From: a virus | Length of the DNA: 64,000 nt | Strand: one strand, 5' to 3' | IMG/VR virus record: IMGVR_UViG_3300042402_007915 | Span: 32,001-96,000 of that record | Shown: positions 22,278-44,271 of the stretch, one piece after another | How the letters are laid out: each line of letters starts with the position of its first letter | Numbering within the stretch: position 1 is the stretch's first letter | Position numbers and translations under genes: made by a program | Notes under the pieces: generated by a model | What the model saw: the letters and a program-made list of their open reading frames with translations, nothing else | Databases searched by the model: none | Told to the model about the DNA's origin: nothing

Positions 22278-22302
22278 GCTGACAAAACAGTAACTAAATG
22301 AT

Positions 22303-22336
22303 ATACAGGGTGAGGCAACTCACCCTGTATTCTTTT
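22303..22336 (+). terminator. Rho-independent terminator after the tail tube gene
   Basis: ATACAGGGTGAG-GCAA-CTCACCCTGTAT: perfect 12-bp stem with a GNRA loop, followed by TCTTTT. Confidence 0.88.
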
Positions 22337-22348
22337 GTAGGAGAGAAA

Positions 22349-23670: not shown

Positions 23671-23680
23671 AGGATAAGTA

Positions 23681-24502: not shown

Positions 24503-24511
24503 GGAAATACC

Positions 24512-25183
24512 ATGCTCGACATCAAGAAGATTGTCGAGAGTGAGGGACTGTATAGAACGAGCCTCCCTTTCGGAGGCTCGTTTACTTGGCGCCTCTTAAC
24601 TCTCAAAGAATACAACGCCTTCGCTTCCCTCAAGGACTCCGGTACCATTAACGACTATGAGTTCTACACAAAGGTGTTTGAGTACTGTTTTGTGGGGAAT
24701 CCTTTACTCATTGATGGAAGCATGCCAATGGGTATTATCTTCGGGATTGGACGGCTAATCATTGACCTGTCAGGACACAAAGACGCAGAGCAAGAGAAGG
24801 CTGAACTTGAGATTGCTCGCCAAAACTATCCCAGGAATACTCTGCTTGAGTACATGAAAAGAGTAATACTTAGAACGTTTTCAACGTATACTCCAGAAAT
24901 TATTGAGAATTGGACAAGGGAAAAAATCCTAGAAAGATTTGTCTTGGCAGAGTCTGTCTTGGCTGATGCTACGGGATACACCCCAATCTCAATGGACAAC
25001 ATTCTGTCTCCGCAAGAGGCGAAGAAGAAGGCAAAGAAGAAGGAGAAGATTGACTTCGAGAAGGAAAACAGAGCACTCGAAAAGTCTCTTGGTAAGAACG
25101 GACAGCACTTTGTTGAGAACACTCCAACTGATCCAGAGTATGAAAAGCGTCTTCGGATAGCGAAGGCGATGGGAGGTAGGTAG
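24512..25183 (+). CDS. Tail assembly chaperone 2 (putative, paralog of chaperone 1)
   Basis: FTWRLLTLKEY..KVFEYCFVGNP..PMGIIFGI parallels the preceding gene; has its own AAGGA SD. Confidence 0.6.
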   Translation: MLDIKKIVESEGLYRTSLPFGGSFTWRLLTLKEYNAFASLKDSGTINDYEFYTKVFEYCFVGNPLLIDGSMPMGIIFGIGRLIIDLSGHKDAEQEKAELEIARQNYPRNTLLEYMKRVILRTFSTYTPEIIENWTREKILERFVLAESVLADATGYTPISMDNILSPQEAKKKAKKKEKIDFEKENRALEKSLGKNGQHFVENTPTDPEYEKRLRIAKAMGGR

Positions 25184-28100
25184 TGGCATTTGAATCGTTT
25201 AGGGGCCCAGACATTTGGAGCAGTGAAGAGGCTCCGAACTCAAATGCAAACCTGTACAACTCGGGACAGTTCGCCGTTGCTGCAGCAGTAGCCGGTGGGG
25301 GTCTTTACGCTGGGTACAAGTTTAACAATAACTCGATGTACCCAATGATTGAAGGTGCGTCAGATAAGTTTAGACGTATTGGTAACCTGACCCCCTTTCA
25401 GCTTGCGAACACTTTCCGTATCCCTGAGTTTTTGTCTTTCTTTACGTCAGCCCAGTACAAGAATCGGGTCCTAAATCTAAGTGGCAACGCTTCTCCTGTT
25501 TCAGGAGTAATTGAGTGGGGTCGTGATGCTCTACAGAACGAAGACACTGCCGATTACATTTCTAGTATTACCGGGAGAAGTAGGAATGAGTTGGCGGCTC
25601 TTGGGTTCGAGCCCACTCGTATCAAGAATCTTGTTGGTGCTGACAACGCCAAACTGTCTTGGGAAGCAACCGGTGCAGGCAGAGGACGGCTCTCGTTTGT
25701 TCAGAGCCTAAGTGGTGTAGAAAGTCGGGCTCTTCTTTCTGAGGACATTGCTGTCGGTGCTTTCTCTCATGAGGTTAATGCTGCTGCTGGCGGGCACAAG
25801 GGAGAAGTAAACAAGCTAACCGAAGGAATGATGCGGGCGGCTGGCGTTGGGGAACGAACCGACGACTCCGTCAACAAGATCCTAAGAAGTTATACCGCCT
25901 CTGGAAGTACTGCACCCTCGTTTATGCCAGTACCGTCCATGTTGGGAAGGCTTGATAGCTTTGAGGACCTAGCACGACGCAGTACGATCCTTCGAGGTAT
26001 CTACTCGTTCTCTGCAAACCGCTTTAATGAGCTTATGGAAACGTTCGTCGACACTATGGGCGGCGACAAGACCAAAGAGTTCATGCGGAATGTTTTGGGT
26101 GTTAATCCTAAAGTCAAAGGCGGTACCGCAAGCTCTCTTATAGCTCGTTATGCGGGTAGAGCAGCAGCTTTTGGAGGAGCTGTTCTTGCCGTTGACCAGC
26201 TCGATTGGTTTAGGCGTCAGCACTCCTTCGGCCAAGTCTTTTCCTCTGGGGTAATGTCTGCAGGCTTTGCCTATGCCGCCCAAAAGATGGGCCATACTAG
26301 AGTCGCCAAGTATGGGGCCGCTGCTACTTTCTTGGGTCAGTTGATCCTTCCCGGTTTTGATGAAGGTGTTGTACCTGGAGTAGCAAGTAGTCTTGCGTCC
26401 TTGGACGTAATAAGAGGCTCGCCCCTTAACCCAATGACCCACTACAGAAGGGCGGTGGAAGGTCTGCTCCCCGGATTTACTGGGTTTGAGTTTACTGCGC
26501 TTACAGGTGCAGCTGCCCTTCTTGCAACTTCTATTCGGTCTCCAATTAGCGGACAGACCTTAGCGGAGAAAATCTTCTCAAAGTACGGAAACATTGTAGG
26601 TGTCGGACATGGAAATATCGACAACTACTATGGCGTAAACAAAGAAGCTCTCAGCCCAAGAGATATCTACTGGAACAAGGTGTCAGAAGCTGTTGACCAG
26701 AAGGTAGGCGCTCCTATTGGAATGGAAAGAAGGACGCTAAAAGAACGAGCTCTGTTATTTAACCGGTTCGAAAAGCTGTTTGGTGCGGACGCAGACTTTA
26801 CTGCCAACTCACTATTCCAAGCAGCAGAGACCGAACACAAAGAGTTGATGCGGAACTCTTTCACTACTTCTGGTGGCATTAACAACCGAATGGTTGAAGC
26901 CTTACGTGGAGTCGCAAGCAAATACCAAGGTCAAGGCTTGGGCAAGAAAGTAATGATGAACGTAGAAGGGTTTGGCGTTCAGTTACTGTATTCGGTGTTT
27001 GGCGCGGACGCTTCTTACAACAAGGACATTAGATCTGCGATCAAAGGTTTGGGTTTTAAGGGACCGGTTGGTTCGTTTGGTAAGCTCCTGACCGTTGCTG
27101 GTGCAGGTATGGCCGCCCATTCTATTCTCTCGGGTAACCTGCTTGGTTCATTAGCAGGCTCTGAAGAGCTGTCTAGAATCTATTCAGGTGAACAGTTAGT
27201 TGAGGTGAAGAGTTCTAGGGCCTGGGAAGCTGGTGGTACTCCTTTTGAGGGAGGTGAAACTTCTTACTTCAGACCACACCAGTTAGCGTTGATGAGGAGT
27301 AGGGCAAGAGAGAAGGCGGTTTGGGGTGAGAATGAAGACGAGATTTCGCCTCTGAAGAAGTTCTTCATTAAGAACTTCACTTATGACCTCGAGAGAATGA
27401 ATTACTACAGGCGGCCTTATCAGATGACAGGGTCTGCATTCCAAGACGTCCCTATTGTTGGTGATATCTTGGCAGGCTCTGTTGGGCAGTTAATCAAGCG
27501 CGCAAGGCCGATGCATTTGGGTGAGTGGGTTCGTGAGGGCGAGTCCGGTTTGGAGTACGCCTCTTTGTTCAAGGGGGCAAAGGCCGAGCCGGCTTATGCG
27601 CTTGGGGCGCCTAAGCCTGGCGCTCCTGTCAGTCCGTTTGCAGCCGGTGAAATTGCCAAGCAGATGGTGTACCAGTTTAGAGAAATTGAAGGTATGACGG
27701 GATGGGCCAAGAACATCATCCAGCAGACGCTCACGGGTTCAGCTCAATGGGAGAACCCGGCTCAGTCTATTGCAACCTCAAACGAGATGGACTCGACAAA
27801 GCGTAACTTCTGGGAGATGAACTTAGGAGGCGCACTCTTCAGCAACGAAATCATGCGCCGTATCCTTCCTCCAGACAGACAGGGGTTAGTAAAACAAAAC
27901 GCAATTCGTAACGACATGCCTTACTGGTTGCCAGATAAATTCCACTATGGCGATCCATTCACACAGGTTGAATGGGGAGACGCAAGACTTCCAGGTGCAG
28001 GTTACGAGGCACTACATCCAGAACTAAGGGGAATGGACCCTAACGACTACCCACTAATTGCAAGGTACGCAATCTTGGGAGACGTAGCACCTACTTCATA

Positions 28101-29280
28101 CGAGTTTAACAAAACCCAAAGAGAGGTTTATAAGAAACGGTACGAAGGTGGTTACAACAAAGAGCAAGAGGTACTGATTGATACTGTAGCGGCTAATGCA
28201 GCATCAGTAATCTCAAAGCTGGATTTCAGAAGGAATGACCCTAACGCGTATAACACGGCACTGACACCGATAACAGGCGGCCTCTTCCATTCTCTCCTCT
28301 CGGTAGCAAGAGAAGTAGCAGCACCTGCTGAGTACTTATTCCCAATGGGTTTCCGCCCAATGCAGAAACTTACTGGACAACTAAGAACCCCAATTGAAGA
28401 GTACGAACACAGAAGAATGTACGGAACAAATATGGCCTTCTGGGATAAGCCAATCCGAGACTGGTTCCGTCCTGCTGCTTACAGTGCTGCTCACCTTGCG
28501 GGCTTTGATGGGAAGCCTGGCTGGAGAACAGAAGCAGATGCGGCGTCTCAAAGATTCGACCAAATTGAATTTGTAAAGTGGATGCGTCTTGCACAGACAG
28601 CTAAAGAAAATGGTCTCAAGAATGAAGAGAACCAATACCTCTGGGCTGCTCAGCAGACCCGCGCAGGAGTAAACCCTCAAGGCTCCCCCCTTGCCATTTA
28701 CTGGGCTCTCCCTGCCGAGGACAGAGCCTTTATGGACGCGTTCGCAAGGGCTGCACCTACTGAGAGGGGACGTATCCTAGAAATGGTTCCTAAGGACCAG
28801 CAGCACCTCTACAAGGCCTTGTGGAGTCGACTCGACAGTGGAGATCCAACAGTCCAGTACCCGACAAGTGCCAAGGTAGACGGCTTAGCCTTAGCACAAA
28901 AAGCAGCAGTCCTCGAGCAACAAATAGCTATGCCCAAAGAAGACTGGATTGGCTGGAATCAAGAAGTGGATATTTCAGACATTAAAGTACGCTATGCTCA
29001 AAACCATGCACTTGATCTTCAAGACTATGGCATGTGGGACAAGCAGCTTAAAAAGTCTTATAACCAGTCCTTTCTTGATGGAGCTGAACTAGAAGTGCCT
29101 GTGCCAAGTGCAATCATGGCGCAAGAGATTCGAAACAGCCTTTCATCAATGGGGGGGCCGCTAAATTCGAACTATACAGTCAATACCACGTACGGTATGT
29201 CTAGGGCAAAGATTGCTGTTAACGATGACAGAGAAGGCGCTATTCAAAGGTTAAGAAGGGAGGCTAACTATGGGCTTTGA
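25183..29280 (+). CDS. Tape-measure-like giant tail protein
   Basis: 1365 aa; GTG start with GGAGG SD; canonical position after the chaperones; helical, Ala/Gly-rich, several hydrophobic segments. Confidence 0.65.
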   Translation: MAFESFRGPDIWSSEEAPNSNANLYNSGQFAVAAAVAGGGLYAGYKFNNNSMYPMIEGASDKFRRIGNLTPFQLANTFRIPEFLSFFTSAQYKNRVLNLSGNASPVSGVIEWGRDALQNEDTADYISSITGRSRNELAALGFEPTRIKNLVGADNAKLSWEATGAGRGRLSFVQSLSGVESRALLSEDIAVGAFSHEVNAAAGGHKGEVNKLTEGMMRAAGVGERTDDSVNKILRSYTASGSTAPSFMPVPSMLGRLDSFEDLARRSTILRGIYSFSANRFNELMETFVDTMGGDKTKEFMRNVLGVNPKVKGGTASSLIARYAGRAAAFGGAVLAVDQLDWFRRQHSFGQVFSSGVMSAGFAYAAQKMGHTRVAKYGAAATFLGQLILPGFDEGVVPGVASSLASLDVIRGSPLNPMTHYRRAVEGLLPGFTGFEFTALTGAAALLATSIRSPISGQTLAEKIFSKYGNIVGVGHGNIDNYYGVNKEALSPRDIYWNKVSEAVDQKVGAPIGMERRTLKERALLFNRFEKLFGADADFTANSLFQAAETEHKELMRNSFTTSGGINNRMVEALRGVASKYQGQGLGKKVMMNVEGFGVQLLYSVFGADASYNKDIRSAIKGLGFKGPVGSFGKLLTVAGAGMAAHSILSGNLLGSLAGSEELSRIYSGEQLVEVKSSRAWEAGGTPFEGGETSYFRPHQLALMRSRAREKAVWGENEDEISPLKKFFIKNFTYDLERMNYYRRPYQMTGSAFQDVPIVGDILAGSVGQLIKRARPMHLGEWVREGESGLEYASLFKGAKAEPAYALGAPKPGAPVSPFAAGEIAKQMVYQFREIEGMTGWAKNIIQQTLTGSAQWENPAQSIATSNEMDSTKRNFWEMNLGGALFSNEIMRRILPPDRQGLVKQNAIRNDMPYWLPDKFHYGDPFTQVEWGDARLPGAGYEALHPELRGMDPNDYPLIARYAILGDVAPTSYEFNKTQREVYKKRYEGGYNKEQEVLIDTVAANAASVISKLDFRRNDPNAYNTALTPITGGLFHSLLSVAREVAAPAEYLFPMGFRPMQKLTGQLRTPIEEYEHRRMYGTNMAFWDKPIRDWFRPAAYSAAHLAGFDGKPGWRTEADAASQRFDQIEFVKWMRLAQTAKENGLKNEENQYLWAAQQTRAGVNPQGSPLAIYWALPAEDRAFMDAFARAAPTERGRILEMVPKDQQHLYKALWSRLDSGDPTVQYPTSAKVDGLALAQKAAVLEQQIAMPKEDWIGWNQEVDISDIKVRYAQNHALDLQDYGMWDKQLKKSYNQSFLDGAELEVPVPSAIMAQEIRNSLSSMGGPLNSNYTVNTTYGMSRAKIAVNDDREGAIQRLRREANYGL

Positions 29281-32200
29281 TCCATTCACAAGAATGCAAG
29301 AGAAGAAGGAAAGGACTACAGACGGCTTTGCGGTCGCCGCTAGTCTTGCGCCTGCTGTGGGCGTGGCAAGCTATCTTTGGAAGCAGCAAGTGAAGAACGG
29401 CCCCATTAATCCTGTCTCCTCTCTAGGTCTGAAGAATGACACTTCTGACTTCGGTAGAGAACTTGGTAAGGCCCTAAAGCCAAAAGAAAAAAAGGAAGCA
29501 GCAATAAAGGCCTTCCTGGAAGGAGATGCTTTTGCCAAGGTAGTTAGTAAAGCCCAAGACAGAAGAGCCTTAATTCAGTCTGTACTGATTGGACTGGACG
29601 CTGATGAGCTTGGAGTCGACAAGGGAGCCCTTGCTGACCTAAAGGACAAACTTCTTAAAATCGGTGAATTGGACCAAGACGACCTTGCCGATGACCTGAT
29701 TCGTCCTCTCAGGGAGGTCATTGATACGCTTAACACCTCTGGTAACGATTCCATGAGGAGTAAAGTGGCCGAGAACTTCCAGGAGCTAAAAGCGTTCAAG
29801 AAGAAGATTGTTCCGGCCAAGCCTTTTGGCAGTCGTCCCTCTTCGACGAGTTTCAGGGTGCTGGATCAAAGCGCTCTAACTAACTTTGACACCTTCAGGA
29901 CTCAAGTTAGGTCTGCCGGTGCAAACGCAGGAGACGAAGAGCTTTCAAGAATCTTCAATGACCAAGTTGGAAGCATTAAACGGTTTATCGGTACGAATCT
30001 CGATAATGCTCAGCTAGTCGTTGTCGACGCTGCAGCTGGTGTTAAGTCACTAAACCTTAGAATCATGCAGGGTACTAAGGGGAACATGAGACCGGTTATG
30101 AACCTGCCAGTAGCGTTCAACCTCGGCAACACCGATGCGTCGATGCCTAACATCACAAGAATGGGGCGTGACTTTGCTACAGGGTACTTTGTTCCGCAAG
30201 GCGTTATCGACACAAGAGAAATCTTGCATCAGCTTAAGGAGGGAAAGATCACTCCGGGTAACGTAAAGGGTGTTCAGTCGAATATGAAAAGCTTCGGCAG
30301 CTATGCTCTTGGCTTACTAGAAGAACACTTTGAAATGACCCCGAGTGGAAGACTGAAGTCTCGACTTGGCACCACCAACAAAAAAGCACAGTCTGAAATG
30401 TTTGCAGTGCTAAATGCGAACATGGAGAACATGCCTAGGTCTCTGTCTGCGACTCTAGAATCGAATGAAGCTCAGGCCGAATACCAGTCTCATGTTAAAA
30501 AGCGTGCTGGTGCTAAACACAAGACTGTTTTGCTGACTCATGGTGAAGCTCTTACAGATGCTGACTTCAACTATGTGCATACTTCCTTGATTGGTGGAGA
30601 TTCTCCTTTTGACCCTGGTGTTGGTGCTTCTCGTTTGCAGAACATAATTGGTGGTCGCAAGTTTGGTTTGCTTCAGTTGTCGAGTCATTCTGTTCATAGT
30701 CGTTACAGATTGCCGTTTAAGGTGTCGCGTAAAGACGCGCCACTTATTGCTCGACAGGAGCAGGTAGAAGGTCGTATTGGTCAGTTCATTGCTCGAGGTG
30801 GAAAGGAAAACAATCCGACTATCAGAGGCGGACTGACTCTGGGAGAAGAGACAGCCTCTCCTATCCTTGAGGGAATGACGGGACACAAGAACGTACTTGT
30901 TGCAGTTGACGTCACAATGGGAAAAGGAAAGGGCGCTTATTCTGCGGCAGAAAATGAAGGTCAGTACTTTGTTCCAAAGAACAAAGGAGCAGGTCTTGGT
31001 GCCTACATCACAGAGAGCACAATCCCGCTACTCGACCCCGAAGAACACAAGCTTATGTCTTCAGAGCTACTCGAACAATTAAAGGCAGATTTCGAGGCAG
31101 GAAAGCCGCCGCGTTATTTCACGCTTGAAGAGATCGGCAAGCTTAACGGATATCTTGGTCACTCAACGCTTGGTAACAGGACTGTAAGGATTGATCCTCG
31201 TATGCTCGGCGCGTATATGGGTATTGCAGAGACAACAAGTGCTTCTGGAAAGAAGCAAATTCACCTGACATCTCGAGCTGTTAGAAAGGCTAGCGCAGGC
31301 AAAGTCTTCTCCACCTCGACAGTAAAAGGAACTTATAGAGCAACGAGAACTGCTTCTATCCGGCGAGATCTATCTACTTATGGTAGGACTAACTTGGTAG
31401 ACGGAAGACTTGTCAGAGAAGACGTATTCGACCGCATTCTCACTGACGTAAGTGGTGTAAAAAGCGGAGCCGGCCTAAACATCAAGGGTTCGTTTATCAC
31501 GGGCTCTGGAGACGTGCTGAAGAAGTCTGCTGCAAACAGGGCCAACTTCCTATTGACCTCCGCCGCTGTCTCTCTAGGTCAAAAGCACTCCAACCTCCTT
31601 CATGAAATGACTGGTAAAGTAAGCAGCTCGGAAGAACACTCCAGTTACCTGTTTAACAAGATTGCCACAGCTTTCGAAGCGGGACAAATCTCGGAAAGCC
31701 AAGCAGCCAATAGCTTATCTCTACCTTGGTGGGGAGGAGGCAGAGGAACAGGTAAAGGCGCTTACGCTCCGGAAATGAAGTCTATCGCAGATGAAATGCT
31801 TAAGCGTTCGCAAGAGACTACAGAGCAAGGAAAGAAGTGGGCTGCCCTGCTTGAGCTAACAGAAAAAGGACTTCAGGTAGGTGTGGATACTGTCACGCAG
31901 GGTACGGGACACGGAGATTACGGACTGGGTCGCGCATCTATTGAACCGAGAGCAATCGGGTTCATTCGCATGTCTCTCCAGGACATGGGTTTTGACAGCA
32001 AGCAGCAGGTTAACTTCATGCGAGAGATCCTCTCCAGAAAAGTAGGTGGAACCGCAACCCGTAGAACCCTTGAAGGCCTTACGACTGTAATGGCTTCGCA
32101 GATCTCTGCTCCAATTGATGGCGCAAGCAAGATGCCTTCATTCACGGTCAATCAGTTGCTCAAAGAGGCCAATACGCCTACCGAATTCAAAGAGTTAATG

Positions 32201-34573
32201 CGTAAAAACGAGAACGGCTTCTTTATCGATTTTAACAACGAGGAAGACCTCAATAGTTCAATCTTCAGAGAGGCAGCCCGCGAGAAGTACGGCAATGATA
32301 GACGCGTTTTCATTGCTGGAAAGCGTACTATTGAGAATATGAAGGGGACCGAGATCAAGCAGTCCAACCAGACAGTCAAGGTTGCCTCTGCGTACGAAGA
32401 GATGTCTTCCGAGTTCTTCTCGCAGATTAAGCAGCTTACGTCTAACTCTGACAATACAACCGTTGGCGATGTAATTAAGACGATGGACAGCTACAAACAG
32501 CAGACCACGCGTCTCTACACGTCGACTTTGCACCAGGTTACTCGTGGCAAGATCAAGGGCAATACTATGGGTATTGTCCACTTTACTGGTACTGAATACG
32601 ATATGGAGACAGCTACTGGAACCCAGAGAATGAAGATGGCTCTGAGTTCAACGCAGAGCGCCTATCAACGTGCCGCCGAAGAAGCCACCAAGAAACAAGT
32701 TGTATTTAGAGATACCCTTCAGTTCCTAAACAATCTTACGGACTACATGAACGTAACAAAAGACAAGGGTGAGCTTGGGGCCTCGCTTCGTAATTTTGCA
32801 TTGGAAAGTGCTCAGCTGCTTCGAGACAGTAAAGCTGGCGTTGCTACTACTGCTCAAGGTGAATGGGGCCTTATTGCTCGTGCCCCTGCTCTTGCTGCTG
32901 GTAACTTCAGGCTCATGGCCTCGTTTAGGTCTCCGCATGAAATGAACGAGAGCGTAGATCCCCTATTCCGAATGATTAAGGATTCAAAGTCAGCACGTAA
33001 AATACTTCACAAGTTTGAAGAAGACGCAGGCCTTGTGACTGTTACCGAGAAGAAAGTCACCAACAAGAAAGGCGAAGAAGTCGTCAAGCAAATCCGAAAG
33101 GGCACCCCAGTAGAAAGCTTTGATCAGCTACTTGACCTTGAGAAACAGCATCCTAACTTAGTTCGGACACTGTTTGAGGACTTCGCTGCAAACCTTAGAC
33201 AGTGGAATAGAGGTACCGGCGGCGGCTCTGTATTCATCGTCAAGGATATGGCGAACGCAAAGATTGACGGTAAAGTGAGGCCAGTGGATCTTGGTTTCGC
33301 TACTGGATCTCTTGCGGACGCAGACGGTGACTGGGCCTCTTTCATGACGCTGTCTAAAGAGCAGCGGAAAGTGATTGCAGCTAAGATGGCAGATCCAACT
33401 TCAGCTGCAGCGTATATTGCAGCACAGCAAGACCAAACTATTGCGTCAAGCGTATACGCAGAGTACGCAAAGAAAGGGCTTGTTTCGACTGGTGTCCTTA
33501 ACGAAACCTCAGATGAAATCCTGCGGAAGGACTTACTCAAGGAAAAGACTTCGGCTTCGGGCACCGGTAGCGTTGACGTTGCGTTGAACAAACTTCGTAA
33601 TGCAAGCCTTGCTTTCCAAACTGAAGACCCTCGTTTGCTTAGGGAAATGGTTCCGCTTTTTCAGATGCTGGAAGAGCACACTACGATTAAGTCTAAGAAG
33701 CTTGCAGACTTCAAGCCATGGGCAGAGCGTCTTTCCGCGTCTGTTGACGAAGCATTTCGTAGAGACAATATCGCTCCTTTTGCTAACTTCCTAAAGACAG
33801 AGATCTTTCCAGAAGCTGACATGAAGGAGCTTTACGCAGGCTTTGACGTTGAAGCAAGCGGGAGAACTACTCGCATTGAAGGTTTGGATGCAATCTTTGG
33901 TTACCTGCAAAAAGCCATCGTAAATGCCAAAGCGAATAAAATCGACCTTATGGCTACACCGAACATTGCAGCAACAACACTCGCTGGTGATGAAGTTGGT
34001 GTCGCAAGAGAATTGTTTGCCGCCATCACTTCAGGCAAAGCAACGATGCAAAGCGGTATGGCTGCTGAGTTCTTCGGAGACAGGGCTAACCAGAACTTAG
34101 CTAAAGCAGAAGTGCTGAGACAGGCCGCATCTAACCTGATGGACAAGATAGATGTTCGTGGTGCAGGGCTTGCTGTTGGGGCCCTTGCTTTGGGGGCTAT
34201 TACTGTAGGTGCTGTATCAGGCGGCGCCACCTCTTCTCCTCTCATGGTAGAAGGTGAGATGCCTGTTGCAGGGCTTAACAGAGCAGTTTCTGATGGTTTC
34301 CTAGAGGGAAGTGAAGCTCGTGGGATGAGTGGTGGGCCCATGTCAGACGTATATGACATGACAAACACTCCTCAAGGTCATGGTGTGACTTACATGTCAG
34401 GTGGGGCTGGGTTTGACATTAGAGGCGCGACCAGTTCCTTGGCCAACACTGAGACCAGTAGGGCTTTCATCAATTTAGTAACAAAAGGAAATGCTAGAGG
34501 TTCTGTTGTTATCAATGATACAAGAAGGCCTATTACGCCAAACTACTTGGATCGTCTTAACGGAGAATACTAA
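29270..34573 (+). CDS. Putative single-chain two-barrel (beta+beta'-like) virion RNA polymerase with tape-measure-like termini
   Basis: In order: GHKNVLVAV..ENEG (E563), GK678VFSTSTVK686GT, RGK1094, R1204APAL, AD1350AD1352GD1354 and a bridge-helix-like R1419KDLLKEKTSASG; GGAGG SD. Confidence 0.8.
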   Translation: MGFDPFTRMQEKKERTTDGFAVAASLAPAVGVASYLWKQQVKNGPINPVSSLGLKNDTSDFGRELGKALKPKEKKEAAIKAFLEGDAFAKVVSKAQDRRALIQSVLIGLDADELGVDKGALADLKDKLLKIGELDQDDLADDLIRPLREVIDTLNTSGNDSMRSKVAENFQELKAFKKKIVPAKPFGSRPSSTSFRVLDQSALTNFDTFRTQVRSAGANAGDEELSRIFNDQVGSIKRFIGTNLDNAQLVVVDAAAGVKSLNLRIMQGTKGNMRPVMNLPVAFNLGNTDASMPNITRMGRDFATGYFVPQGVIDTREILHQLKEGKITPGNVKGVQSNMKSFGSYALGLLEEHFEMTPSGRLKSRLGTTNKKAQSEMFAVLNANMENMPRSLSATLESNEAQAEYQSHVKKRAGAKHKTVLLTHGEALTDADFNYVHTSLIGGDSPFDPGVGASRLQNIIGGRKFGLLQLSSHSVHSRYRLPFKVSRKDAPLIARQEQVEGRIGQFIARGGKENNPTIRGGLTLGEETASPILEGMTGHKNVLVAVDVTMGKGKGAYSAAENEGQYFVPKNKGAGLGAYITESTIPLLDPEEHKLMSSELLEQLKADFEAGKPPRYFTLEEIGKLNGYLGHSTLGNRTVRIDPRMLGAYMGIAETTSASGKKQIHLTSRAVRKASAGKVFSTSTVKGTYRATRTASIRRDLSTYGRTNLVDGRLVREDVFDRILTDVSGVKSGAGLNIKGSFITGSGDVLKKSAANRANFLLTSAAVSLGQKHSNLLHEMTGKVSSSEEHSSYLFNKIATAFEAGQISESQAANSLSLPWWGGGRGTGKGAYAPEMKSIADEMLKRSQETTEQGKKWAALLELTEKGLQVGVDTVTQGTGHGDYGLGRASIEPRAIGFIRMSLQDMGFDSKQQVNFMREILSRKVGGTATRRTLEGLTTVMASQISAPIDGASKMPSFTVNQLLKEANTPTEFKELMRKNENGFFIDFNNEEDLNSSIFREAAREKYGNDRRVFIAGKRTIENMKGTEIKQSNQTVKVASAYEEMSSEFFSQIKQLTSNSDNTTVGDVIKTMDSYKQQTTRLYTSTLHQVTRGKIKGNTMGIVHFTGTEYDMETATGTQRMKMALSSTQSAYQRAAEEATKKQVVFRDTLQFLNNLTDYMNVTKDKGELGASLRNFALESAQLLRDSKAGVATTAQGEWGLIARAPALAAGNFRLMASFRSPHEMNESVDPLFRMIKDSKSARKILHKFEEDAGLVTVTEKKVTNKKGEEVVKQIRKGTPVESFDQLLDLEKQHPNLVRTLFEDFAANLRQWNRGTGGGSVFIVKDMANAKIDGKVRPVDLGFATGSLADADGDWASFMTLSKEQRKVIAAKMADPTSAAAYIAAQQDQTIASSVYAEYAKKGLVSTGVLNETSDEILRKDLLKEKTSASGTGSVDVALNKLRNASLAFQTEDPRLLREMVPLFQMLEEHTTIKSKKLADFKPWAERLSASVDEAFRRDNIAPFANFLKTEIFPEADMKELYAGFDVEASGRTTRIEGLDAIFGYLQKAIVNAKANKIDLMATPNIAATTLAGDEVGVARELFAAITSGKATMQSGMAAEFFGDRANQNLAKAEVLRQAASNLMDKIDVRGAGLAVGALALGAITVGAVSGGATSSPLMVEGEMPVAGLNRAVSDGFLEGSEARGMSGGPMSDVYDMTNTPQGHGVTYMSGGAGFDIRGATSSLANTETSRAFINLVTKGNARGSVVINDTRRPITPNYLDRLNGEY

Positions 34574-37500
34574 TGGCTCTCAGCCCCAACCAGCTCCCCT
34601 ACGTTGTTGATGTATTCACACCGGTAGGAGAAGAGGACCTTTACAGTCGCAAGGACGTCTTCATCATTAATGACATTGGCTTGATCATCCCGCCAATGGC
34701 TATCTCTATCCAGAAGGAAGATCTTTCCTACACCTGGAAAATGCTGCGTTCTGCTACTACTACCAAGCTCCCCACTGGGCATGGAGCTATTCGTATTGGT
34801 ATCACGATTCCTTTTTTGAACAATCACATCTTGGACTTTCACCGACTTCTTGTTCAGATTCGGCATAACCCTTTTGTTTATATCGAAAACAGGTATCTGA
34901 GAGAGTCAATCATTCCCGAAGCCCCAAGTTCACAGAACATGGCCTTTGGCGTGGACTCTGTTAACATTGCAAGCATGAACGGAACTGCTGACGCTTGGGT
35001 TCTGCAGCTAAACCTAAGTTGGTTTAACTACGCACCCTTTGGACCGAACTTCCTATTCAGGCGAGAGTGGGAAACAGTAGACGTAAATGAAATGAACTTT
35101 GCAAGCTCCTCAGACCCTAACGGGGAAGAGGTTCCGGTAATCGTTCGTAAGAGTATTGGGTGGCATCTCCCTGACGAGTACGGCAGGAGAACCCCGCGGC
35201 CCTGTATTACTTCAATGCGTTATCTTAGGGATGATAGCTTTGGTACAAGCGACTCTGAGACAGGAGAGTCAACTCCAGTAAACGACTTCGACACCACAAT
35301 CCCTAGTCCGATGACTTTGATTGATATGGAGTATGTTCACAAGGGTTTCGAGTGGGACTTGCTGCCTAAGATTTCAATGATGAGTAGGTCAGCGCCTTCT
35401 GTCTTCCCTGCTTCCTCAAGGATCTACACACGGTTCTATAACTACCTGCAGAGAGACGCACTAAAGGAAAACTTTGGCATTGACCTTGAGGGAATGCTTA
35501 GGGACCAAGGCGGCAATGTGGATGGCTACTTTGGTGTTTGGGATCCAACCAGAGCTGACCGTCTCGAAACGTGGTCTCTGCATAATGGTCCAAGAATGCT
35601 AGGGGCCTCAGAAGAGGAGCGCAAGCGCGAGATCGCTATATGGGCTTCTGTAATGTCATCCGTCCGAAGCGCCATGTTTGATATGAACGGACCTCTTGTG
35701 GTTGGCTTCCATTTGTACAAAGAAGTACGAATGCCAGCAGAGTGGGCCAAGGCTCTTGGCGATATGATTCGGGTAAAGAACACAGCGTCCCAGATGGCCT
35801 TGGATGAGAAGATCAACAACCCACTCAGCCCTGAACATCAGATGGATTCAATTACCTACCAAGACCCAAGTACTGGGAACTGGTACGTCATGGAGAAGAA
35901 GTACGAGGGTGGCCCTCTTAGTTGGAAGCCAAAGCTCTTCTCTCAGACTCCAGGGAACCTCCAGGGCCTTTCAACACCCATTGGCGTAGGCGGACGTAAG
36001 GCTACGTTTGCCGAGGTCTCAGCCGTCTCTGGACAGGGCATAGCGACTCGAAACTTTCCTGTTGCAGGTTCAGGCAGGACACTCAAGTCTGGTGAGCTTA
36101 GGGCACACTTGGGCTTGGACTTGTCTCCGCTGAGCAAGAGTGAAAGCACTTACGTCTATCCGGTTAAGGATGGCACCGTACTTAAAACCACTCAATACGA
36201 AGCTCTTAAGGGTACTTGGTATTGGACTTCAGATAGTGGAGTCACTGAGCCCGTTAGTGCTAAGCATTTAAGTCGTCTTAAAGTCGTGTTTAAGACTTAT
36301 AGCGGCTTCTTCTTTGGAGAGGGTGTAAGCCCTGAGTTGTACCTTCTTGGAATTGGTGACAACTTTGTTGGTGCCCAAAGTTACCTCGAGAAAGGAAGGG
36401 TTGGCTCGGTTTACCGCTGCGACTATGTTGGTACTGGGTGGGAAGAGTCTGGTTGGTTTTGGATTAACGGACCTTCTTCTGGTAACACAATTACCATTCA
36501 GCATGGAGATGGAAGCGTCTCTCGGTACATGCACCTTGAATCAATTACCAAGGGGCTGAGGGCCGGAGTGCCTGTTAGTGTTAACACCGTTATCGGTGTG
36601 ATGGGGCAAAGTGGAACCTATGCTTCTAACAAAGTTGCAGACTTCCTAACGACGAATGGCACAAGTGAGATTCGGTCTCTTGGGGCGGCAAACGAAAACT
36701 TAGCGTCTTTTGGGATTCATCTTCACCTTGAGTACGAAGAGCCTTTCAGGAACTCCCTCTGTGTTCCTTCAAGGGTCTTCACTTATGAAGGTGAAGTGGT
36801 TGATCCGGGCAAGACCCCTTCAACTGTTCTAGTTAACCTAAAGCAGATCTACAAGCATTTTGAAGATAGGCAGGCTGTTACTATTCCGGAGGACTACGTA
36901 GCTCCCGAGTACAAAGAATACATCGCGGAAGCGACGACAAAGGCCATCTTGTCTGAAGACTCAACAAAGCCTAAAACGCAGACAGAAGAAGAACAGCTTC
37001 AGTCCGTGGCCCAAGAGCTTGAGGACTTGGTGGAAGACGGATGGGCTAACTACGGCGGGTCTGGTGGTTTGGGTAACGTCTATGAAAAGGCGGTCTTCTT
37101 TAATTTCCGTACCGACCAAGCAAGTGCTATCAAGCTTCCGGAGAACCTAGTTTACACCTTCCAAGACACGTTCCTTACGGGTGTTAGTGCTTCTTACGGA
37201 GCCATTCTCTCAAGGATCCCTCTGCTTGGGCACGAGTACCCAACGCTTCAGCACCTAGGTTCAAACGAACCGTCTTATTCTTTTGAGTTTGCAGCTTTGG
37301 ATACCGAAGAGACTCTGGACGGAGTAAGCTCTGGAGTTAGAAACCTTGAGTCAATGAGGGCAAGGCTTCAGAAGAATGCGCGACTCTTTAGAGAGGTTCC
37401 CAATAGCTGGTCCTGTCTCATGGATACATTTCTCACTCGCCTAATGGGTAGCTACAAGGAGACAGACGTTGTCGTAGATAGTCCAGGAGAAGGACTGCCT

Positions 37501-40500
37501 TCTCGCTTGATGATGAAGAAGAGAATGAACCTCAGCCGTACCGAGGTCGGAACTATCCAAGGAAACCCCGGCGCCTCTTTCTATACGGTAGAGGCAGAAG
37601 AGACAAACGTCTTTGAGACAGAAATCCTAAAGAACACTAACAGTCAGTTCACGACAATTGAGAATGCAAGGCAAACGGTACTTCATAAGCTCCTTAATCT
37701 TGAAGTAAAAGATGTGGAGAATGAAGCTCTTACACTGGCTATCGCTAAAGCATTAGCACCACAGGCCCTTGATCCTGCAAACCCAATGTATGGGATTATC
37801 GATTTAAGCAACCAATCTCTCCTGAACTCTGACCTGTATCTTCCAGGGCCAGAAGACAGTAGCTCCAAGCCAGACAACGGTAGTCTTGAGAATCTGGTTA
37901 GCTTTTTGATGGCAGAGCGAGCCAGCGGAGAAGTGTATAGCGTTCTAGAAGAAACAGAGCTAGGCGGCTTGCTGGGAGAGTTCCCCAAACAACCATTCGC
38001 AAAGGCTGAAGAGCAGTATAGTGCTGACAAAAACAAGAGCGGAATCGTAGTAGATTTGACGAAGCTTACAGGCGTGACTCTTAACGATAGCTTCTTAGAC
38101 ATCAAGGAACTGCTTGCTAACAACGGGGGTCCCGAGGGGGCAGCCGCTTTCCTGCAGATGATGGACCTCCATTTCCTCCTCAAGGCTCTCATTGAAAAGA
38201 GTTGCATTGTACTTGCAGAAGACAAGTCTAGAGCAAGCGGTACCTATCCAGACGGCGGTTTCACTGTTGAGGAGGCCAGAAGTGAGCTCTACCAAATGCC
38301 TATCACTCCAAGCATGTGGAGCCTGTTTACTGAATACGAAAGGGTCTGTGCACAAAGGTTCTCTCTTGATGTAAACGGCTTTGATGTCCTGGAGGGAAAC
38401 TCAGAGGGCGCAATCGCAACGCTAGAAAGCAATGCTAACTGGAATACCTTTGAGCCGGTAAAGGACGGAAGCGAAGCCTACGTCAACAAGCTTACTATCG
38501 AAGCTAGAAAGGCTGGTCTAAGTGTGACCAATCTTCACTTGGCCTTTGACACTGTAGAGATCCTAACCTCTTCTGCCGTAGAAGGAGCTGCTGATACTGC
38601 ACTCGGGTTTGCAAGCTACATTCCAGGCGCAAGCCTCGCTATCGACCGCAATGGAGAGTCTGAAGGTCTTCTCGGAACTCGTATGTTTGACGCAAGTGTA
38701 AAGAACGCACTTAGTGAAGCTCATGAGTTTTTGGTTGAGGGATACATTAACAGCATCTTCAAGTCTGCTATCGGTTTGACGGAGACCGCAAAGGCTTACG
38801 GCCAAGAGTTTATCTTTAGGCCTCTCCAAGCACTTGTTACTTCTTCGAGCACTGGATATTCGCCACTCGACAACCCTATCGGAGCATTCACCAAGCACGT
38901 CGAATCTTCAGGTTATTGGGGCTATGGTTTTCACCACTTCCTTGGTTTAGGGCCAAACACTGGCGGTCTCACTTTCTGGGCGGCAAACCCAGAGGACTAT
39001 GTCATCGTTTACGACAAGAGCTACGAAGCTGGTAGGGCGCAAGTAACTAAGCAAATCTACGAAGGTGTTAACGGTAGCATGGCCACAAATGCTTTTGCCG
39101 CAATTGCTTCTCTTGCCAATGGTTCTCTACAGCCTTTTGATAACTCTAACATCACACAGTGGAACTCTCCTTTGGAGTGGAAGGTTACACGGCCAGAAGA
39201 GAAGGACAAGGTTGACCAGCTCAAGAGAGAGTTCTCCTCTCTCGCGGACAACATCCTAAACAACTACAACCTGCTCAAGTTATTTGGTTTGGAGAAGTAC
39301 ACCAATGTCCTAAACAACGAACAGTACCTCGAAGGAACAGAGGCGTATCCAGACCTTAAGCTGCCAGCCCATCCTTTCTACGGAACGGTGAAAGATACCG
39401 GGCCCGACTTCTATTACTGGAACGTATACGAAGACGGACAGATGCTTGACGCACAGGTTGTAAAGAGTGTTGAAGCTTCGATGGATGAGGTCGTTAAGAA
39501 TGCGTATCAGAGCATGCGACGGTTCCAGTCGGGTGAAAAATACAACCCGGTTAAAGACCCAAGTACCAACTACTCCAAAGACGTAGCACAGGCTGCTCAA
39601 GGGGTCATTCTGTTTAACGCAGAAGCTACTGACGGGAACAGCAACAACCCTGCAAATAAGGGTCGTACTTCTATCAGCTTCTACGAATACGAAAAGACTG
39701 AACAGATTGCAGAGTTTGAGAATGCCCTCACTGGAGCAAACGGAAAAGAAATCCTGAAGAGGCATCCAAAGATTCCAAACCTGTTTGGTACTAGTGGCAT
39801 CTCAATCGGTAGCGAGTTCATGCCGGATAATTTTGCTCCCATTAAGCAGCAAGACCTGGAGAACCTAGAGAAGACTCTTGAGGAAACTCAGAGCATGTTT
39901 GGATCTCGAAGTGGATACCTGAAGGAGAAAGTGGGCAACCCTCTTACTCGAGGTCTTGAGGGAACCAACAGAGCCTCCACTCCAGACATCACCGGGCATA
40001 GCTGGACTATGGAATCGCTTCAGGGTCTTGCGAAGGAAAGCGCAAAAGACATCTTCTCCCAGAAGATGACCATGGCTAGAGCCTACCCAACCTTCAAGCT
40101 GTTCTTTGTAGAGGAAGATGAGATTGAAAACGCTCTGATTTCTCTAGACGACTTCCACTCGTACAACGGTGTGAAGGACTTCACCTTTGTAGAATCAAAG
40201 GATTCACCGGCCAGTGTAGCTGTCATTTCTCTCCAGAACGTCTCAGGAGTGCTTGACGGAACAAAGAGAAACGTCGTTACTGACTTGGACTACTTTGACC
40301 GGAAGATCACTAAGTCCCTTGAGAAGAACCAGTCGCACCTCCAAGGAGATGTGCTTACGGAAGGTACTGACTACGAACAGCCGTTTGGCTCTGTCGTTCT
40401 ACGTCCAGGCCTAAACGTACAGCTTAGAGTTGGCTATTCAAATGACCCCAAGAACCTCTCGGTCCTCCTCTCAGGTCGTATTGTCGATATCTCTTGGAAC

Positions 40501-44270: not shown

Positions 44271-44271
44271 G

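What the first reader, a model, noticed from the sequence alone, without database searches (positions are those of the whole stretch)
29270..34573. Hidden single-chain two-barrel RNA polymerase in the tail module
Seen: this 1767-aa protein has the motifs of both RNAP barrels in the cellular beta-then-beta' order. (1) GHKNVLVAV..ENEGQYFV (about 30880-30975) resembles RpoB G-[QK]-N-x-x-VA..GYNFEDS. (2) GK678VFSTSTVK686GT (31298-31333) has the same 8-residue spacing as E. coli beta K1065/K1073 in GDKMAGRHGNKGV. (3) TRGKIKG (about 32540) resembles beta' LGKRVDYSG. (4) LIARAPAL (R1204 at 32879) resembles LLNRAPTL. (5) LADADGDW (DADGD at 33317-33331) resembles NADFDGD, with all three Mg-binding aspartates kept. 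(6) RKDLLKEKTSASG..VDVA (from 33524) resembles the bridge helix RKGLADTALKTANSG..VDVA. Known: single-chain two-barrel RNAPs include SPbeta YonO, crAss-like phi14:2 gp66 and Thermus phage P23-45 gp64/gp96. Inference: a highly divergent virion-packaged RNAP of a contractile-tailed phage that transcribes early genes after injection, and that automated annotation would probably call hypothetical or tape measure.
Basis: partly seen in the sequence, partly recalled or inferred. Interest (0 to 1): 0.93.

Follow-up and report, generated by a model that had tools for sequence, protein, structure and literature searches.

The report
Hidden RNA polymerase in phage tail module
A 1767-residue "hypothetical" protein encoded among the tail genes of a 147-kb lake-water phage folds as a single-chain version of the cellular RNA polymerase core and keeps its catalytic residues. 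It is probably an enzyme that the virus particle carries into the cell to start its own transcription.

Summary
All six motif strings lie at the stated coordinates in the ORF 29270-34573 (+).

- **Sequence searches:** the protein has no Pfam, PHROG or PDB-sequence match and no tblastn match in about 50,000 isolated phage genomes.
- **Family:** an exhaustive HMMER search found 133 diverged relatives. Among the 101 proteins of at least 1400 aa (100 relatives plus P0001), about 20-40% identical, K678, K686, R1204, P1206 and D1350/D1352/D1354 are kept in 99-101.
- **Fold:** an AlphaFold2 model of residues 380-1500 is confident (pLDDT 87.9, pTM 0.88). In an unbiased search of 48,161 PDB chains the top 18 hits are all two-barrel RNA polymerases. 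The N-terminal half matches beta/Rpb2, the C-terminal half matches beta'/Rpb1, and the whole model matches QDE-1 (Z 9.3-9.9, about 415 residues).

The protein is therefore a new, sequence-orphan family of single-chain two-barrel RNA polymerase.

Delivery by the virion is inferred, not shown. The gene is translationally coupled between the tail-tube genes and a 2968-aa M23-peptidase giant, and it has a C-terminal hydrophobic segment. The same genome encodes a second, YonO/QDE-1-like polymerase in its early arm (Z 12.5). That parallels the virion plus non-virion polymerase pair of Thermus phage P23-45.

Other windows of this scan flagged the same gene. I class it as a new variant of a known kind, interest about 0.7.

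The parts
29270..34573 (+). Whole gene: 1767-aa single-chain two-barrel RNA polymerase (P0001). Its start overlaps the stop of the upstream 1365-aa gene by 11 nt. Its stop, TAA, overlaps the ATG of the downstream 2968-aa gene (TAATG).
29270..30406 (+). N-terminal region, residues 1-379. It was not modelled. It has the conserved start MGFDPF and a Gly/Ala-rich hydrophobic stretch at about residues 19-37. The 1365-aa neighbour has a similar N-terminus.
30407..31933 (+). beta/Rpb2-like half, residues 380-888 (model 1-509). It contains the beta-type double-psi barrel.
   Evidence: (Rpb2-type chains, Z 9-10.4, about 310-330 residues aligned)
31301..31327 (+). Lysine pair K678 (31301-31303) and K686 (31325-31327) on adjacent strands of the beta-like barrel, with F680 between them. 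Each lysine is kept in 99/101 proteins.
32102..33769 (+). beta'/Rpb1-like half, residues 945-1500 (model 566-1121). It contains the beta'-type double-psi barrel, a bridge-helix-like helix and a helix-loop-helix.
   Evidence: E. coli beta' chains, Z about 9.3; designed DPBB 7dww, Z 6.6, at model 718-982
32540..32560 (+). TRGKIKG, at the start of the beta'-like barrel. G1093 is kept in 95/101 and G1097 in 97/101. The structure-alignment ranges start at model 709 = beta' 339, which places G1093-K1094 on E. coli beta' G344-K345 (GKRVDYSG).
32879..32887 (+). R1204-A-P1206 at the end of a barrel strand, the counterpart of beta' NRAPTLH. R is kept in 99/101 and P in 100/101.
33317..33331 (+). D1350-A-D1352-G-D1354, the candidate Mg-binding triad. 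It lies in the loop between the last two barrel strands. The Asp residues are kept in 100, 100 and 101 of 101 proteins; about half of the proteins read DFDGD.
33509..33613 (+). 35-residue helix, residues 1414-1448, at the bridge-helix position. It contains RKDLLKEKTSASG..VDVA.
33671..33703 (+). EEHTTIKSKKL, the most conserved block of the family (E1469 100/101, K1476 99/101). It sits in a helix-loop-helix at the trigger-loop position. That assignment is an inference.
34160..34228 (+). Hydrophobic segment GAGLAVGALALGAITVGAVSGGA, residues 1631-1653. It is a candidate membrane-spanning helix.
34514..34570 (+). C-terminal tail NDTRRPITPNYLDRLNGEY. It is kept at the very C-terminus of the family, including the 2000-3057-aa members. 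It is a candidate assembly or targeting signal, and a weaker NDxRxxAI occurs near the C-terminus of the 1365-aa neighbour.
25183..29280 (+). Upstream 1365-aa protein with no family match. It is syntenic with the polymerase in every related contig read.
34573..43479 (+). Downstream 2968-aa protein, a tape-measure or ejection-type giant. It has an M23 peptidase at residues 635-684, a match to a PHROG 'endolysin' family at 2572-2697, and two hydrophobic segments. It is syntenic in relatives.

Best explanation
P0001 is the founding example seen here of a large, sequence-orphan family of single-chain two-barrel (double-psi beta-barrel) RNA polymerases in tailed phages.

**Shown**
- Residues about 380-888 fold like the catalytic part of the second-largest RNAP subunit (beta/Rpb2) and carry two invariant lysines.
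- Residues about 945-1500 fold like the catalytic part of the largest subunit (beta'/Rpb1). They carry a GK motif, an RxP motif, an invariant DxDGD triad, a long bridge-helix-like helix and a conserved helix-loop-helix.

**Inferred from what is established for this superfamily**
- The Asp triad holds the catalytic Mg ions.
- The lysines contact the incoming NTP and the RNA 3' end.
- The enzyme makes RNA on a DNA template.

**Inferred from gene context**
- The gene is translationally coupled inside the tail operon: sheath, tube, four small genes, the 1365-aa giant, this gene, the 2968-aa M23-peptidase giant, then the baseplate.
- The protein is therefore made late, built into the particle and ejected with the DNA. 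It probably leaves with its two giant neighbours through or alongside the tail channel.
- In the next cell it transcribes the first (pre-early) genes without the host polymerase.
- A second, YonO/QDE-1-like polymerase encoded in the early arm would then take over. This matches the virion plus non-virion polymerase cascade of Thermus phage P23-45.
For: **Conservation**
- 133 relatives were found at 50% clustering.
- K678, K686, R1204, P1206 and D1350/1352/1354 are kept in 99-101 of 101 proteins at about 20-40% identity.
- The 2000-3057-aa members keep the same layout.

**Fold**
- AF2 gives pLDDT 87.9 and pTM 0.88.
- Nearly all of the Foldseek PDB top 50 are RNAP beta or beta' chains, although E is only 0.03 or worse.
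- VIA second look: model 1-509 matches Rpb2-type chains (Z 9-10.4), model 566-1121 matches beta'/Rpb1 chains (Z about 9.3), and the whole model matches QDE-1 (Z 9.9, 416 residues, rmsd 4.2 A).
- The unbiased search of 48,161 chains puts only two-barrel RNAPs in the top 18: QDE-1 9.3, maize RDR2 9.2, archaeal A' 9.2, ASFV 9.2, vaccinia 8.9, P74 gp62 8.6, and AR9 and phiKZ nvRNAPs 7.3-7.5. P23-45 gp96 follows at 6.4.
- This level of similarity equals that reported between accepted families: gp66 versus QDE-1 gives 479 residues, 8.6% identity and 3.5 A (bioRxiv 10.1101/2020.03.07.982082).

**Context**
- Sheath, tube and baseplate genes flank the gene.
- The start and stop codons overlap those of the neighbours.
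- The order of the three giants is conserved in four related contigs.
- There is a C-terminal hydrophobic segment, and the terminal signatures are shared with the 1365-aa neighbour.
- The genome has no T7-like RNAP, no Rpb1 Pfam domain and no sigma-70 region 2.
- The second polymerase is at genome 18831-23054(-); its model matches RDR2 at Z 12.5, QDE-1 at 12.4 and P74 gp62 at 10.8. It co-occurs with a P0001 homologue on a related IMG/VR fragment.
Against: - No sequence method links the family to any known RNAP. Pfam, PHROG and PDB phmmer/hmmsearch give nothing. hhalign against E. coli RpoB and RpoC and against the phage's own second polymerase gives nothing.
- Foldseek E-values against PDB are not significant.
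- VIA Z values of 9-10 lie only modestly above the tool's stated background of 7-8 for models without a clear match. The argument therefore rests on the exclusivity and domain-wise consistency of the hits, not on one score.
- Residue-level superposition and the Asp-Lys distance could not be checked.
- There is no proteomic, expression or biochemical evidence, so packaging, ejection, template and timing are all inferred.
- Which of the three giants is the tape measure is unresolved.
Confidence: 0.68

Rival explanations
1. It is an active two-barrel RNA polymerase that is not packaged. It is made with the late genes and works inside the infected cell, for example on late or tail genes. The early-arm YonO-like enzyme or the host polymerase does the early work.
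For: The fold and catalytic residues are as in the best explanation. Nothing here shows the protein in particles. YonO of SPbeta is a non-virion enzyme (my own knowledge).
Against: - The gene sits between the tube genes and the M23-peptidase giant and baseplate genes, with overlapping stop and start codons. An enzyme made at that time has little left to transcribe.
- It has a hydrophobic segment and a conserved extreme C-terminal tail, partly shared with the neighbouring giant. These are odd features for a soluble cytoplasmic polymerase.
- The phage already has a separate polymerase in the early arm.
Confidence: 0.12
2. It is a structural or ejection protein (part of a tape-measure or ejectosome set) that descends from a polymerase but no longer polymerises. 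The fold is a relic used as a scaffold.
For: - It lies in the tail module, among giants that carry cell-wall-degrading domains.
- It has a hydrophobic segment.
- A structural look-alike in BFVD is labelled 'Minor tail protein'.
- In crAss-like phage gp66 the packaged form has an active site in a non-catalytic conformation.
Against: A relic would not keep all three aspartates, both lysines and the RxP motif in 99-101 of 101 proteins that are otherwise only about 20-25% identical. The most conserved positions of the whole protein are exactly the catalytic ones.
Confidence: 0.07
3. It is a two-barrel nucleotidyl transferase with another job: a PolD-like DNA polymerase or primase, or an RNA-templated polymerase like the eukaryotic RDRs.
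For: - The best single-chain structural matches are QDE-1 and plant RDR2, which use RNA as well as DNA templates.
- The two-barrel superfamily includes archaeal PolD (PMC10770324).
Against: - No PolD chain is among the 50 rows listed by either VIA search, and cellular DNA-dependent RNAP subunits score the same as the RDRs.
- The phage has its own DnaE-type polymerase, primase-helicase and RecA.
- All characterised phage members of the superfamily are DNA-dependent RNAPs (PMC10770324; PMC7824862).
Confidence: 0.06

Closest known systems
P23-45 gp96 virion RNAP (tape-measure-fused) and gp64 / P74-26 gp62 non-virion RNAP
   Same: - It is a single-chain two-barrel RNAP encoded in the tail module.
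- It is followed by membrane and metallopeptidase elements.
- A second, non-virion two-barrel RNAP is encoded in the same genome.
- It carries DFDGD-type motifs.
- Structural matches: P74 gp62 Z 8.6 (357 residues) and gp96 Z 6.4 (340 residues).
   Different: - The polymerase here is a separate 1767-aa ORF ending in a stop codon, not the N-terminus of a 5002-aa tape measure.
- The host phage has a contractile tail, not a siphovirus tail.
- There is no detectable sequence similarity.
- The two polymerases of this phage show no profile-profile similarity to each other, whereas gp96 and gp64 are reported as ancient paralogues (PMC10770324).
crAss-like phage phi14:2 gp66 virion RNAP
   Same: - It is a giant virion-type single-chain two-barrel RNAP.
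- It is flanked by two other giant genes, one of which carries a metallopeptidase domain (gp65 zincin there, M23 here).
- Its sequence is an orphan apart from the DxDxD motif.
   Different: - gp66 has DFDID, with Ile or Val at the fourth position, and a cleft-blocking domain. This family has Gly (78/101) or Ala (19/101) there.
- gp66 belongs to a podovirus.
- 6VR4 is not among the 50 rows listed for this model, although it appears for the second polymerase (Z 5.8).
QDE-1 / plant RDR2 / SPbeta YonO clade of single-chain two-barrel polymerases
   Same: - These are the best whole-length structural matches: QDE-1 Z 9.3-9.9 (about 415 residues, rmsd 4.2-4.4 A) and RDR2 Z 9.2.
- The domain order is the same, lysine barrel first and then the DxDGD barrel.
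- There is no large flap (SBHM) insert in the beta-like barrel.
   Different: - There is no match to the Pfam RdRP family.
- This protein is about 400-800 residues longer, with unique N- and C-terminal regions, a hydrophobic segment and a tail-module location.
- The phage's other polymerase (P0138) is the closer relative of this clade (Z 12.5).
Multisubunit virion RNAPs of phiKZ- and AR9-type jumbo myoviruses
   Same: These are two-barrel polymerases carried in the particle of contractile-tailed phages, paired with a non-virion set. Structural matches to the AR9 and phiKZ nvRNAP beta'-like subunits have Z 7.3-7.5.
   Different: Those enzymes are split into four or five polypeptides and are encoded outside the tail module. 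This one is a single chain between the tube and baseplate genes of a 147-kb genome.

Membership tests
Two-barrel (double-psi beta-barrel) RNA polymerase superfamily | Two double-psi beta-barrels, one beta/Rpb2-type and one beta'/Rpb1-type, that form one catalytic core | tested here: met
   - Model 1-509 matches Rpb2-type chains (Z 9-10.4).
- Model 566-1121 matches beta'/Rpb1 chains (Z about 9.3).
- The whole model matches QDE-1 (Z 9.9).
- A designed DPBB (7dww) matches model 718-982 (Z 6.6).
Sources: with a model of pLDDT 87.9 and pTM 0.88.
Two-barrel (double-psi beta-barrel) RNA polymerase superfamily | DxDGD/DxDxD metal-binding triad in the beta'-type barrel | tested here: met
   D1350, D1352 and D1354 are kept in 100, 100 and 101 of 101 proteins. 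They lie in the loop before the last barrel strand.
Two-barrel (double-psi beta-barrel) RNA polymerase superfamily | Two basic residues supplied by the beta-type barrel | tested here: met
   K678 and K686 are each kept in 99/101 proteins and lie on adjacent strands inside the stretch that aligns to Rpb2. Residue-level equivalence to E. coli beta K1065/K1073 was not checked.
Two-barrel (double-psi beta-barrel) RNA polymerase superfamily | Bridge helix and trigger loop after the beta'-type barrel | tested here: inconclusive
   A 35-residue helix (residues 1414-1448), followed by a helix-loop-helix that carries the EEHTTIKSKKL block, lies in the right place and within the ranges aligned to beta' and QDE-1. 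No residue-level superposition is available.
Two-barrel (double-psi beta-barrel) RNA polymerase superfamily | Asp triad and Lys pair face each other across the barrel interface | not testable with these tools
There is indirect support only: one rigid superposition on QDE-1 spans both halves (416 residues, rmsd 4.2 A).
Two-barrel (double-psi beta-barrel) RNA polymerase superfamily | Template-dependent RNA synthesis | not testable with these tools
   This needs biochemistry.
Virion (injected) RNA polymerases | The protein is present in the particle and acts before any phage protein is made | not testable with these tools
   Only gene position in the tail operon and analogy bear on this. No isolate of this phage group is in the phage collection.
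P23-45 gp96-type tape-measure-fused RNAP | [quoted passage not shown] | tested here: not met
   The ORF ends with TAA at 34571-34573. The next giant starts at 34573 in another frame, and relatives are split in the same way.
crAss-like gp66 family | A DFD[IV]D motif, and sequence membership in the crAss RNAP family | tested here: not met
   The fourth position is Gly or Ala, and there is no PHROG match.
Tail tape measure protein | A long, mostly helical, extended polypeptide with a match to a TMP family | tested here: not met
   There is no TMP family hit in Pfam or PHROGs. Residues 380-1500 are a confident globular alpha/beta polymerase fold. Residues 1-379 and 1501-1767 were not modelled.

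The most novel reading that the evidence does not exclude
A 147-kb freshwater myovirus runs a self-contained two-polymerase transcription cascade.

1. A tail-delivered single-chain two-barrel RNAP from a family with no described member enters with the DNA.
2. It starts transcription at 13-14 same-orientation hairpin elements found only in the early arm (genome 4.7-23.1 kb). On the - strand these read GC-rich 5-bp stem, UUC loop, stem, N4, GUUC, N3-4, GGAGG.
3. One element lies just upstream of the gene for a YonO/QDE-1-like second polymerase, which then takes over.

This would be N4-like hairpin-promoter logic carried out by an unrelated, two-barrel enzyme. It would also show that injected two-barrel RNAPs are a widespread, unrecognised feature of contractile-tailed phages: there are 133 protein clusters, and structural look-alikes occur in Acinetobacter phage ME3 and in Microcystis phages.
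Probability: 0.3. Interest if true: 0.85.

Novelty: new variant of a known kind. Interest (0 to 1): 0.72.

Why it matters
Injected two-barrel RNA polymerases are known from three settings: crAss-like podoviruses, one group of Thermus siphoviruses, and the multisubunit enzymes of phiKZ- and AR9-type jumbo phages.

This result adds a fourth lineage that is independent at the sequence level. It is a single-chain enzyme encoded as its own gene between the tube and baseplate genes of mid-sized contractile-tailed phages. It has more than 130 diverged clusters in metagenomes and none among sequenced isolates.

- **Annotation:** it gives a function to a class of giant "hypothetical" or "tail" proteins.
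- **Host independence:** it suggests that independence from the host polymerase is more common in environmental phages than annotation shows.
- **Evolution:** it supplies new deep branches for reconstructing the two-barrel polymerase superfamily, including the proposed phage origin of eukaryotic RNAi polymerases.
- **Delivery:** it poses a concrete mechanical question, namely how a globular enzyme of about 195 kDa (calculated from 1767 residues) leaves through a contractile tail.

Tried and rejected
- **Family and sequence searches of P0001:** Pfam, PHROGs, PDB phmmer, and PDB hmmsearch with a 5-sequence profile found nothing.
- **hhalign:** the 44-sequence family profile found nothing against E. 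coli RpoC or RpoB as single sequences, or against the alignment of the phage's second polymerase. Single-sequence templates are a weak test.
- **tblastn against 50,697 phage records:** P0001 and two divergent long members (P0104, P0110) gave no match.
- **Profile search of the four phages nearest by terminase:** Moorella MTATph1, Acinetobacter ME3, Bacillus 0305phi8-36 and WH1 gave no match.
- **Scan of GTDB species genomes:** the patterns matched, but no relative was confirmed. The 44-sequence alignment was too diverse to make patterns.
- **ESM Atlas:** no usable hit.
- **Alignment of 91 sequences:** the alignment tool failed, so 44 sequences were used instead.
- **Foldseek against PDB:** no hit at E <= 0.001. 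The signal came from the make-up of the hit list and from VIA-align.
- **Sequencing runs:** no RNA holder is listed, so nothing can be said on expression.
- **ME3 DxDGD scan:** the only two hits lie in small genes unrelated to this question. The 798-aa ME3 protein that Foldseek matched (probably ME3_309, judging by its length) was not examined further.
- **Tape-measure reading of this ORF:** rejected for residues 380-1500, which form a globular polymerase fold.
Full report
**What is there**

The window is bases 32001-96000 of a single 147,225-bp virus contig. IMG/VR classes the contig as a 'provirus', and CheckV estimates it 99% complete. In the window all real genes run on the + strand and form the structural module of a contractile-tailed phage:

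| Gene | Coordinates |
|---|---|
| Large terminase | 3096-5345 |
| Major head protein | 14166-15449 |
| Tail sheath | 19284-21584 |
| Two tube-like genes | 21597-23071 |
| Four small genes | 23071-25183 |
| Giant 1 (1365 aa) | 25183-29280 |
| Giant 2 (1767 aa, the finding) | 29270-34573 |
| Giant 3 (2968 aa) | 34573-43479 |
| Baseplate genes, including gp25/W-like and J-like | 44188-45908 |

The genes from the tube to the baseplate are separated by at most about 20 nt or overlap. The finding's start codon lies 11 nt inside the upstream gene, and its stop overlaps the next start (TAATG). The 2968-aa protein carries an M23 peptidase domain and matches a PHROG 'endolysin' family.

**Checking the observation**

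On its own the protein is a complete orphan. It has no Pfam or PHROG family, no PDB sequence relative even with a family profile, and no tblastn match in 50,697 phage records.

A word-indexed search found only four relatives. An exhaustive HMMER search with a three-sequence profile of residues 440-1500 found 133 cluster representatives, 93 of them at E <= 1e-30. Most are 1650-1830 aa and some reach 3057 aa.

I aligned 101 proteins of at least 1400 aa (P0001 plus 100 relatives).

- K678 (99/101), F680 (99) and K686 (99)
- G1093 (95) and G1097 (97)
- R1204 (99) and P1206 (100)
- D1350 (100), D1352 (100) and D1354 (101)
- K1424, E1425, G1433 and D1436
- the block EEHTTIKGKKL

About half of the proteins read DFDGD, which is closer to the cellular NADFDGD than this protein's DADGD. 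The long members keep the same order, with a larger insert between the two halves, and the same extreme C-terminal tail.

Two details of the observation need correcting. The 8-residue Lys-Lys spacing is an idiosyncrasy of this protein, since the other 100 proteins have 7. Motif 1 is only weakly conserved.

**Fold**

AlphaFold2 on residues 380-1500, with 43 relatives as the alignment, gave a confident model (mean pLDDT 87.9, pTM 0.88).

- *Foldseek against PDB:* no hit reached significance (best E 0.03), but almost every one of the top 50 was an RNA polymerase beta or beta' chain.
- *VIA-align on Foldseek's candidates:*
  - Model residues 1-509 align to the catalytic part of Rpb2-type subunits (Z 9-10.4, about 310-330 residues).
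  - Residues 566-1121 align to beta'/Rpb1 (Z about 9.3).
  - The whole model aligns in one superposition to the single-chain polymerase QDE-1 (Z 9.9, 416 residues, rmsd 4.2 A).
- *Search without Foldseek, against 48,161 representative chains:* the top 18 hits were all two-barrel RNAPs. They were QDE-1, maize RDR2, archaeal, ASFV, human Pol I, vaccinia and Pol II subunits, P74 gp62, and the AR9 and phiKZ non-virion enzymes. P23-45 gp96 came at Z 6.4 and designed double-psi barrels at Z 6.1-6.6 on model 718-982.

The tool warns that Z of 7-8 is common background. What carries the argument is that the hit list is exclusive and that each half matches the expected subunit. For scale, the authors of the gp66 structure report 479 equivalent residues at 8.6% identity and 3.5 A against QDE-1.

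In the model the two lysines lie on adjacent strands. R1204 ends a strand and P1206 follows it. The Asp triad sits in the loop before the last barrel strand. The beta' alignments begin at model 709 = beta' 339, which puts G1093-K1094 on E. coli G344-K345 of GKRVDYSG.

The extra 110 or so residues between RxP and DxDGD, compared with E. coli, correspond to a modelled insert at model 852-933. This is the position where cellular enzymes also carry lineage-specific inserts (PMC7824862). I could not measure the Asp-Lys distance because coordinates are not exposed.

**How it most likely works**

Shown: the two-barrel polymerase fold, intact and strongly constrained catalytic residues, and a place in the tail operon that is conserved in relatives. 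The same 1360 / 1750 / 2800-2990-aa gene order, followed by baseplate genes, occurs in four other contigs.

Inferred: RNA synthesis on DNA, incorporation into the particle, ejection, and transcription of the first genes.

The inference rests on four points:

1. **Timing.** A polymerase made together with tail proteins is useful mainly if it is carried to the next cell.
2. **Features unusual for a cytoplasmic enzyme.** The protein has a hydrophobic segment (residues 1631-1653) and a family-wide extreme C-terminal tail, (I/V)ND(T/N)RxPI(T/S)xxY.
   - The 1365-aa neighbour and its homologues have a similar N-terminus (MxF[DE]..., then a Gly/Ala-rich hydrophobic stretch).
   - They also have a weaker NDxRxxAI near the C-terminus.
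   - This suggests a shared assembly or targeting signal.
3. **Parallel architecture.** This protein plus the next giant have the order polymerase, membrane segment, metallopeptidase, long remainder. The single 5002-aa tape measure gp96 of P23-45 has the same order (PMC10770324). crAss-like phages likewise have the polymerase flanked by two packaged giants, one of them a metallopeptidase.
4. **Other transcription genes.**
   - *What the genome lacks:* it shows no T7-like RNAP, no Rpb1-type Pfam domain and no sigma-70 region 2.
   - *The second polymerase:* the genome does encode a second large DxDGD protein (GDDDGD) at genome 18831-23054(-), outside the window. Following a lead from earlier notes of this scan, I folded its residues 230-1000 (pLDDT 65, pTM 0.69). 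It matches RDR2, QDE-1 and P74 gp62 at Z 12.5, 12.4 and 10.8, well above the next hit at 7.5.
   - *Its distribution:* Iyer and colleagues had already noted YonO-like enzymes in the related jumbo phage 0305phi8-36 (PMC7824862). This second polymerase also lies on a related IMG/VR fragment that carries a P0001 homologue.
   - *Relation between the two:* the two polymerases show no profile-profile similarity, so they are not recent duplicates.

**A possible promoter set (lead, partly followed)**

The early arm (genome 4.7-23.1 kb) holds 13-14 same-orientation copies of GAAC-N4-[GC-rich 5-bp stem]-GAA-[stem]. For exact 5-bp-stem/GAA-loop hairpins, 21 occur on both strands of the genome against about 5 expected in shuffles. 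The eight exact copies preceded by GAAY are all in this arm.

Read on the - strand the element is stem-UUC-stem, N4, GUUC, and often N3-4 GGAGG and a start codon. In one copy GUUC lies 15 nt upstream of the start codon of the second polymerase gene. This fits promoters or 5' leaders of leftward early genes. It resembles the hairpin promoters of the unrelated N4 virion polymerase (my own knowledge), but RNA processing or stability elements are equally possible.

**Comparison with what is known, and novelty**

The protein works like the known virion two-barrel RNAPs, but it fails the specific membership tests for each named family:

- It is not fused to a tape measure, unlike gp96.
- It lacks the DFD[IV]D motif and any sequence tie to crAss gp66.
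- It has no Pfam RdRP match.
- It is a single chain, unlike the phiKZ and AR9 enzymes.

Full-text searches found no paper describing such an enzyme in the tail module of a myovirus. I could not read the list of 23 families in Supplementary Data 3 of PMC10770324, because that file is not held. Prior inclusion under another name is therefore not excluded.

Structural look-alikes in BFVD include an uncharacterised 798-aa protein of Acinetobacter phage ME3 (E 1e-7), a 'Minor tail protein' of an uncultured siphovirus (E 5e-7), and large proteins of Microcystis phages LMM01 and MaMV-DC (E 7e-3 and 4e-2).

The DNA occurs in many lake-water metagenomes from different studies. Other first-stage readers flagged this same gene in overlapping windows.

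**Verdict**

The polymerase identity is well supported (about 0.9 for the fold with an intact active site). Virion delivery and early transcription are plausible but unproven (about 0.6). It is a new variant of a known kind.

Noticed in passing
outside the window: G000:C1:18831-23054 (-), = L008:831-5054:-: This 1407-aa protein (P0138) carries IQIRG..KGLL, WRFPAIL and GDDDGD, and has no Pfam, PHROG or PDB sequence hit. The AF2 model of residues 230-1000 matches maize RDR2 (Z 12.5), QDE-1 (12.4) and P74 gp62 (10.8). It is a YonO/QDE-1-like second RNA polymerase in the early arm.
   Followed up: yes
outside the window: G000:C1:4722-23090, + strand: There are 13-14 same-orientation copies of (CCTCC)-N3-4-GAAC-N4-[GC-rich 5-bp stem]-GAA-[stem], confined to the early arm. 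On the - strand they read hairpin, GUUC, GGAGG, start codon. In one copy GUUC lies 15 nt upstream of the start codon of the second polymerase gene. They are candidate early promoters or 5' leaders.
   Followed up: partly
window 25183-29280 and 29270-34573: The 1365-aa giant and the polymerase share terminal signatures. At the N-terminus both have M-x-F-[DE] and then a Gly/Ala-rich hydrophobic stretch at about residues 20-45. Near the C-terminus they have ND-x-R-x-x-[AP]-I. The signatures are kept in the homologues from two other contigs and may be a common assembly or ejection signal.
   Followed up: partly
window 34573-43479: This 2968-aa protein has an M23 peptidase (residues 635-684), a match to PHROG 20474 'endolysin' (2572-2697) and hydrophobic segments at 2070-2089 and 2807-2826. 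Together with the polymerase it reproduces the domain order of the 5002-aa P23-45 tape measure, but as two genes. Which of the three giants measures the tail is unresolved.
   Followed up: partly
outside the window: G000:C1:121518-124064 (-) and 127906-129165 (-): The DnaE-type DNA polymerase III alpha is split into two genes about 3.8 kb apart (the PHP plus N-terminal part, and the finger/HhH/OB part). Between them lie + strand ORFs, one of which (126512-127855) has tail-fibre-like repeats. A primase-helicase, a RecA and a PD-(D/E)XK nuclease are nearby.
   Followed up: no
BFVD hits to model mcfd4e5273fef: Structural look-alikes of the polymerase core occur in isolated phages that have no annotated RNAP: Acinetobacter phage vB_AbaM_ME3 (A0A172Q0S6, 798 aa, E 1e-7, probably ME3_309 in its early region; also A0A172Q021) and Microcystis phages LMM01 and MaMV-DC (E 7e-3 and 4e-2). 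These may be unrecognised two-barrel polymerases.
   Followed up: partly
window 21597-22277 and 22298-23071: Two adjacent paralogous genes both match PHROG 9206 (labelled major head protein, but lying directly after the sheath gene, where a tail tube gene is expected).
   Followed up: no
window 48-1742 (gene starts upstream, at genome 30602): A protein of about 1046 aa with a staphylococcal-nuclease (SNase) domain lies just upstream of the terminase gene.
   Followed up: no
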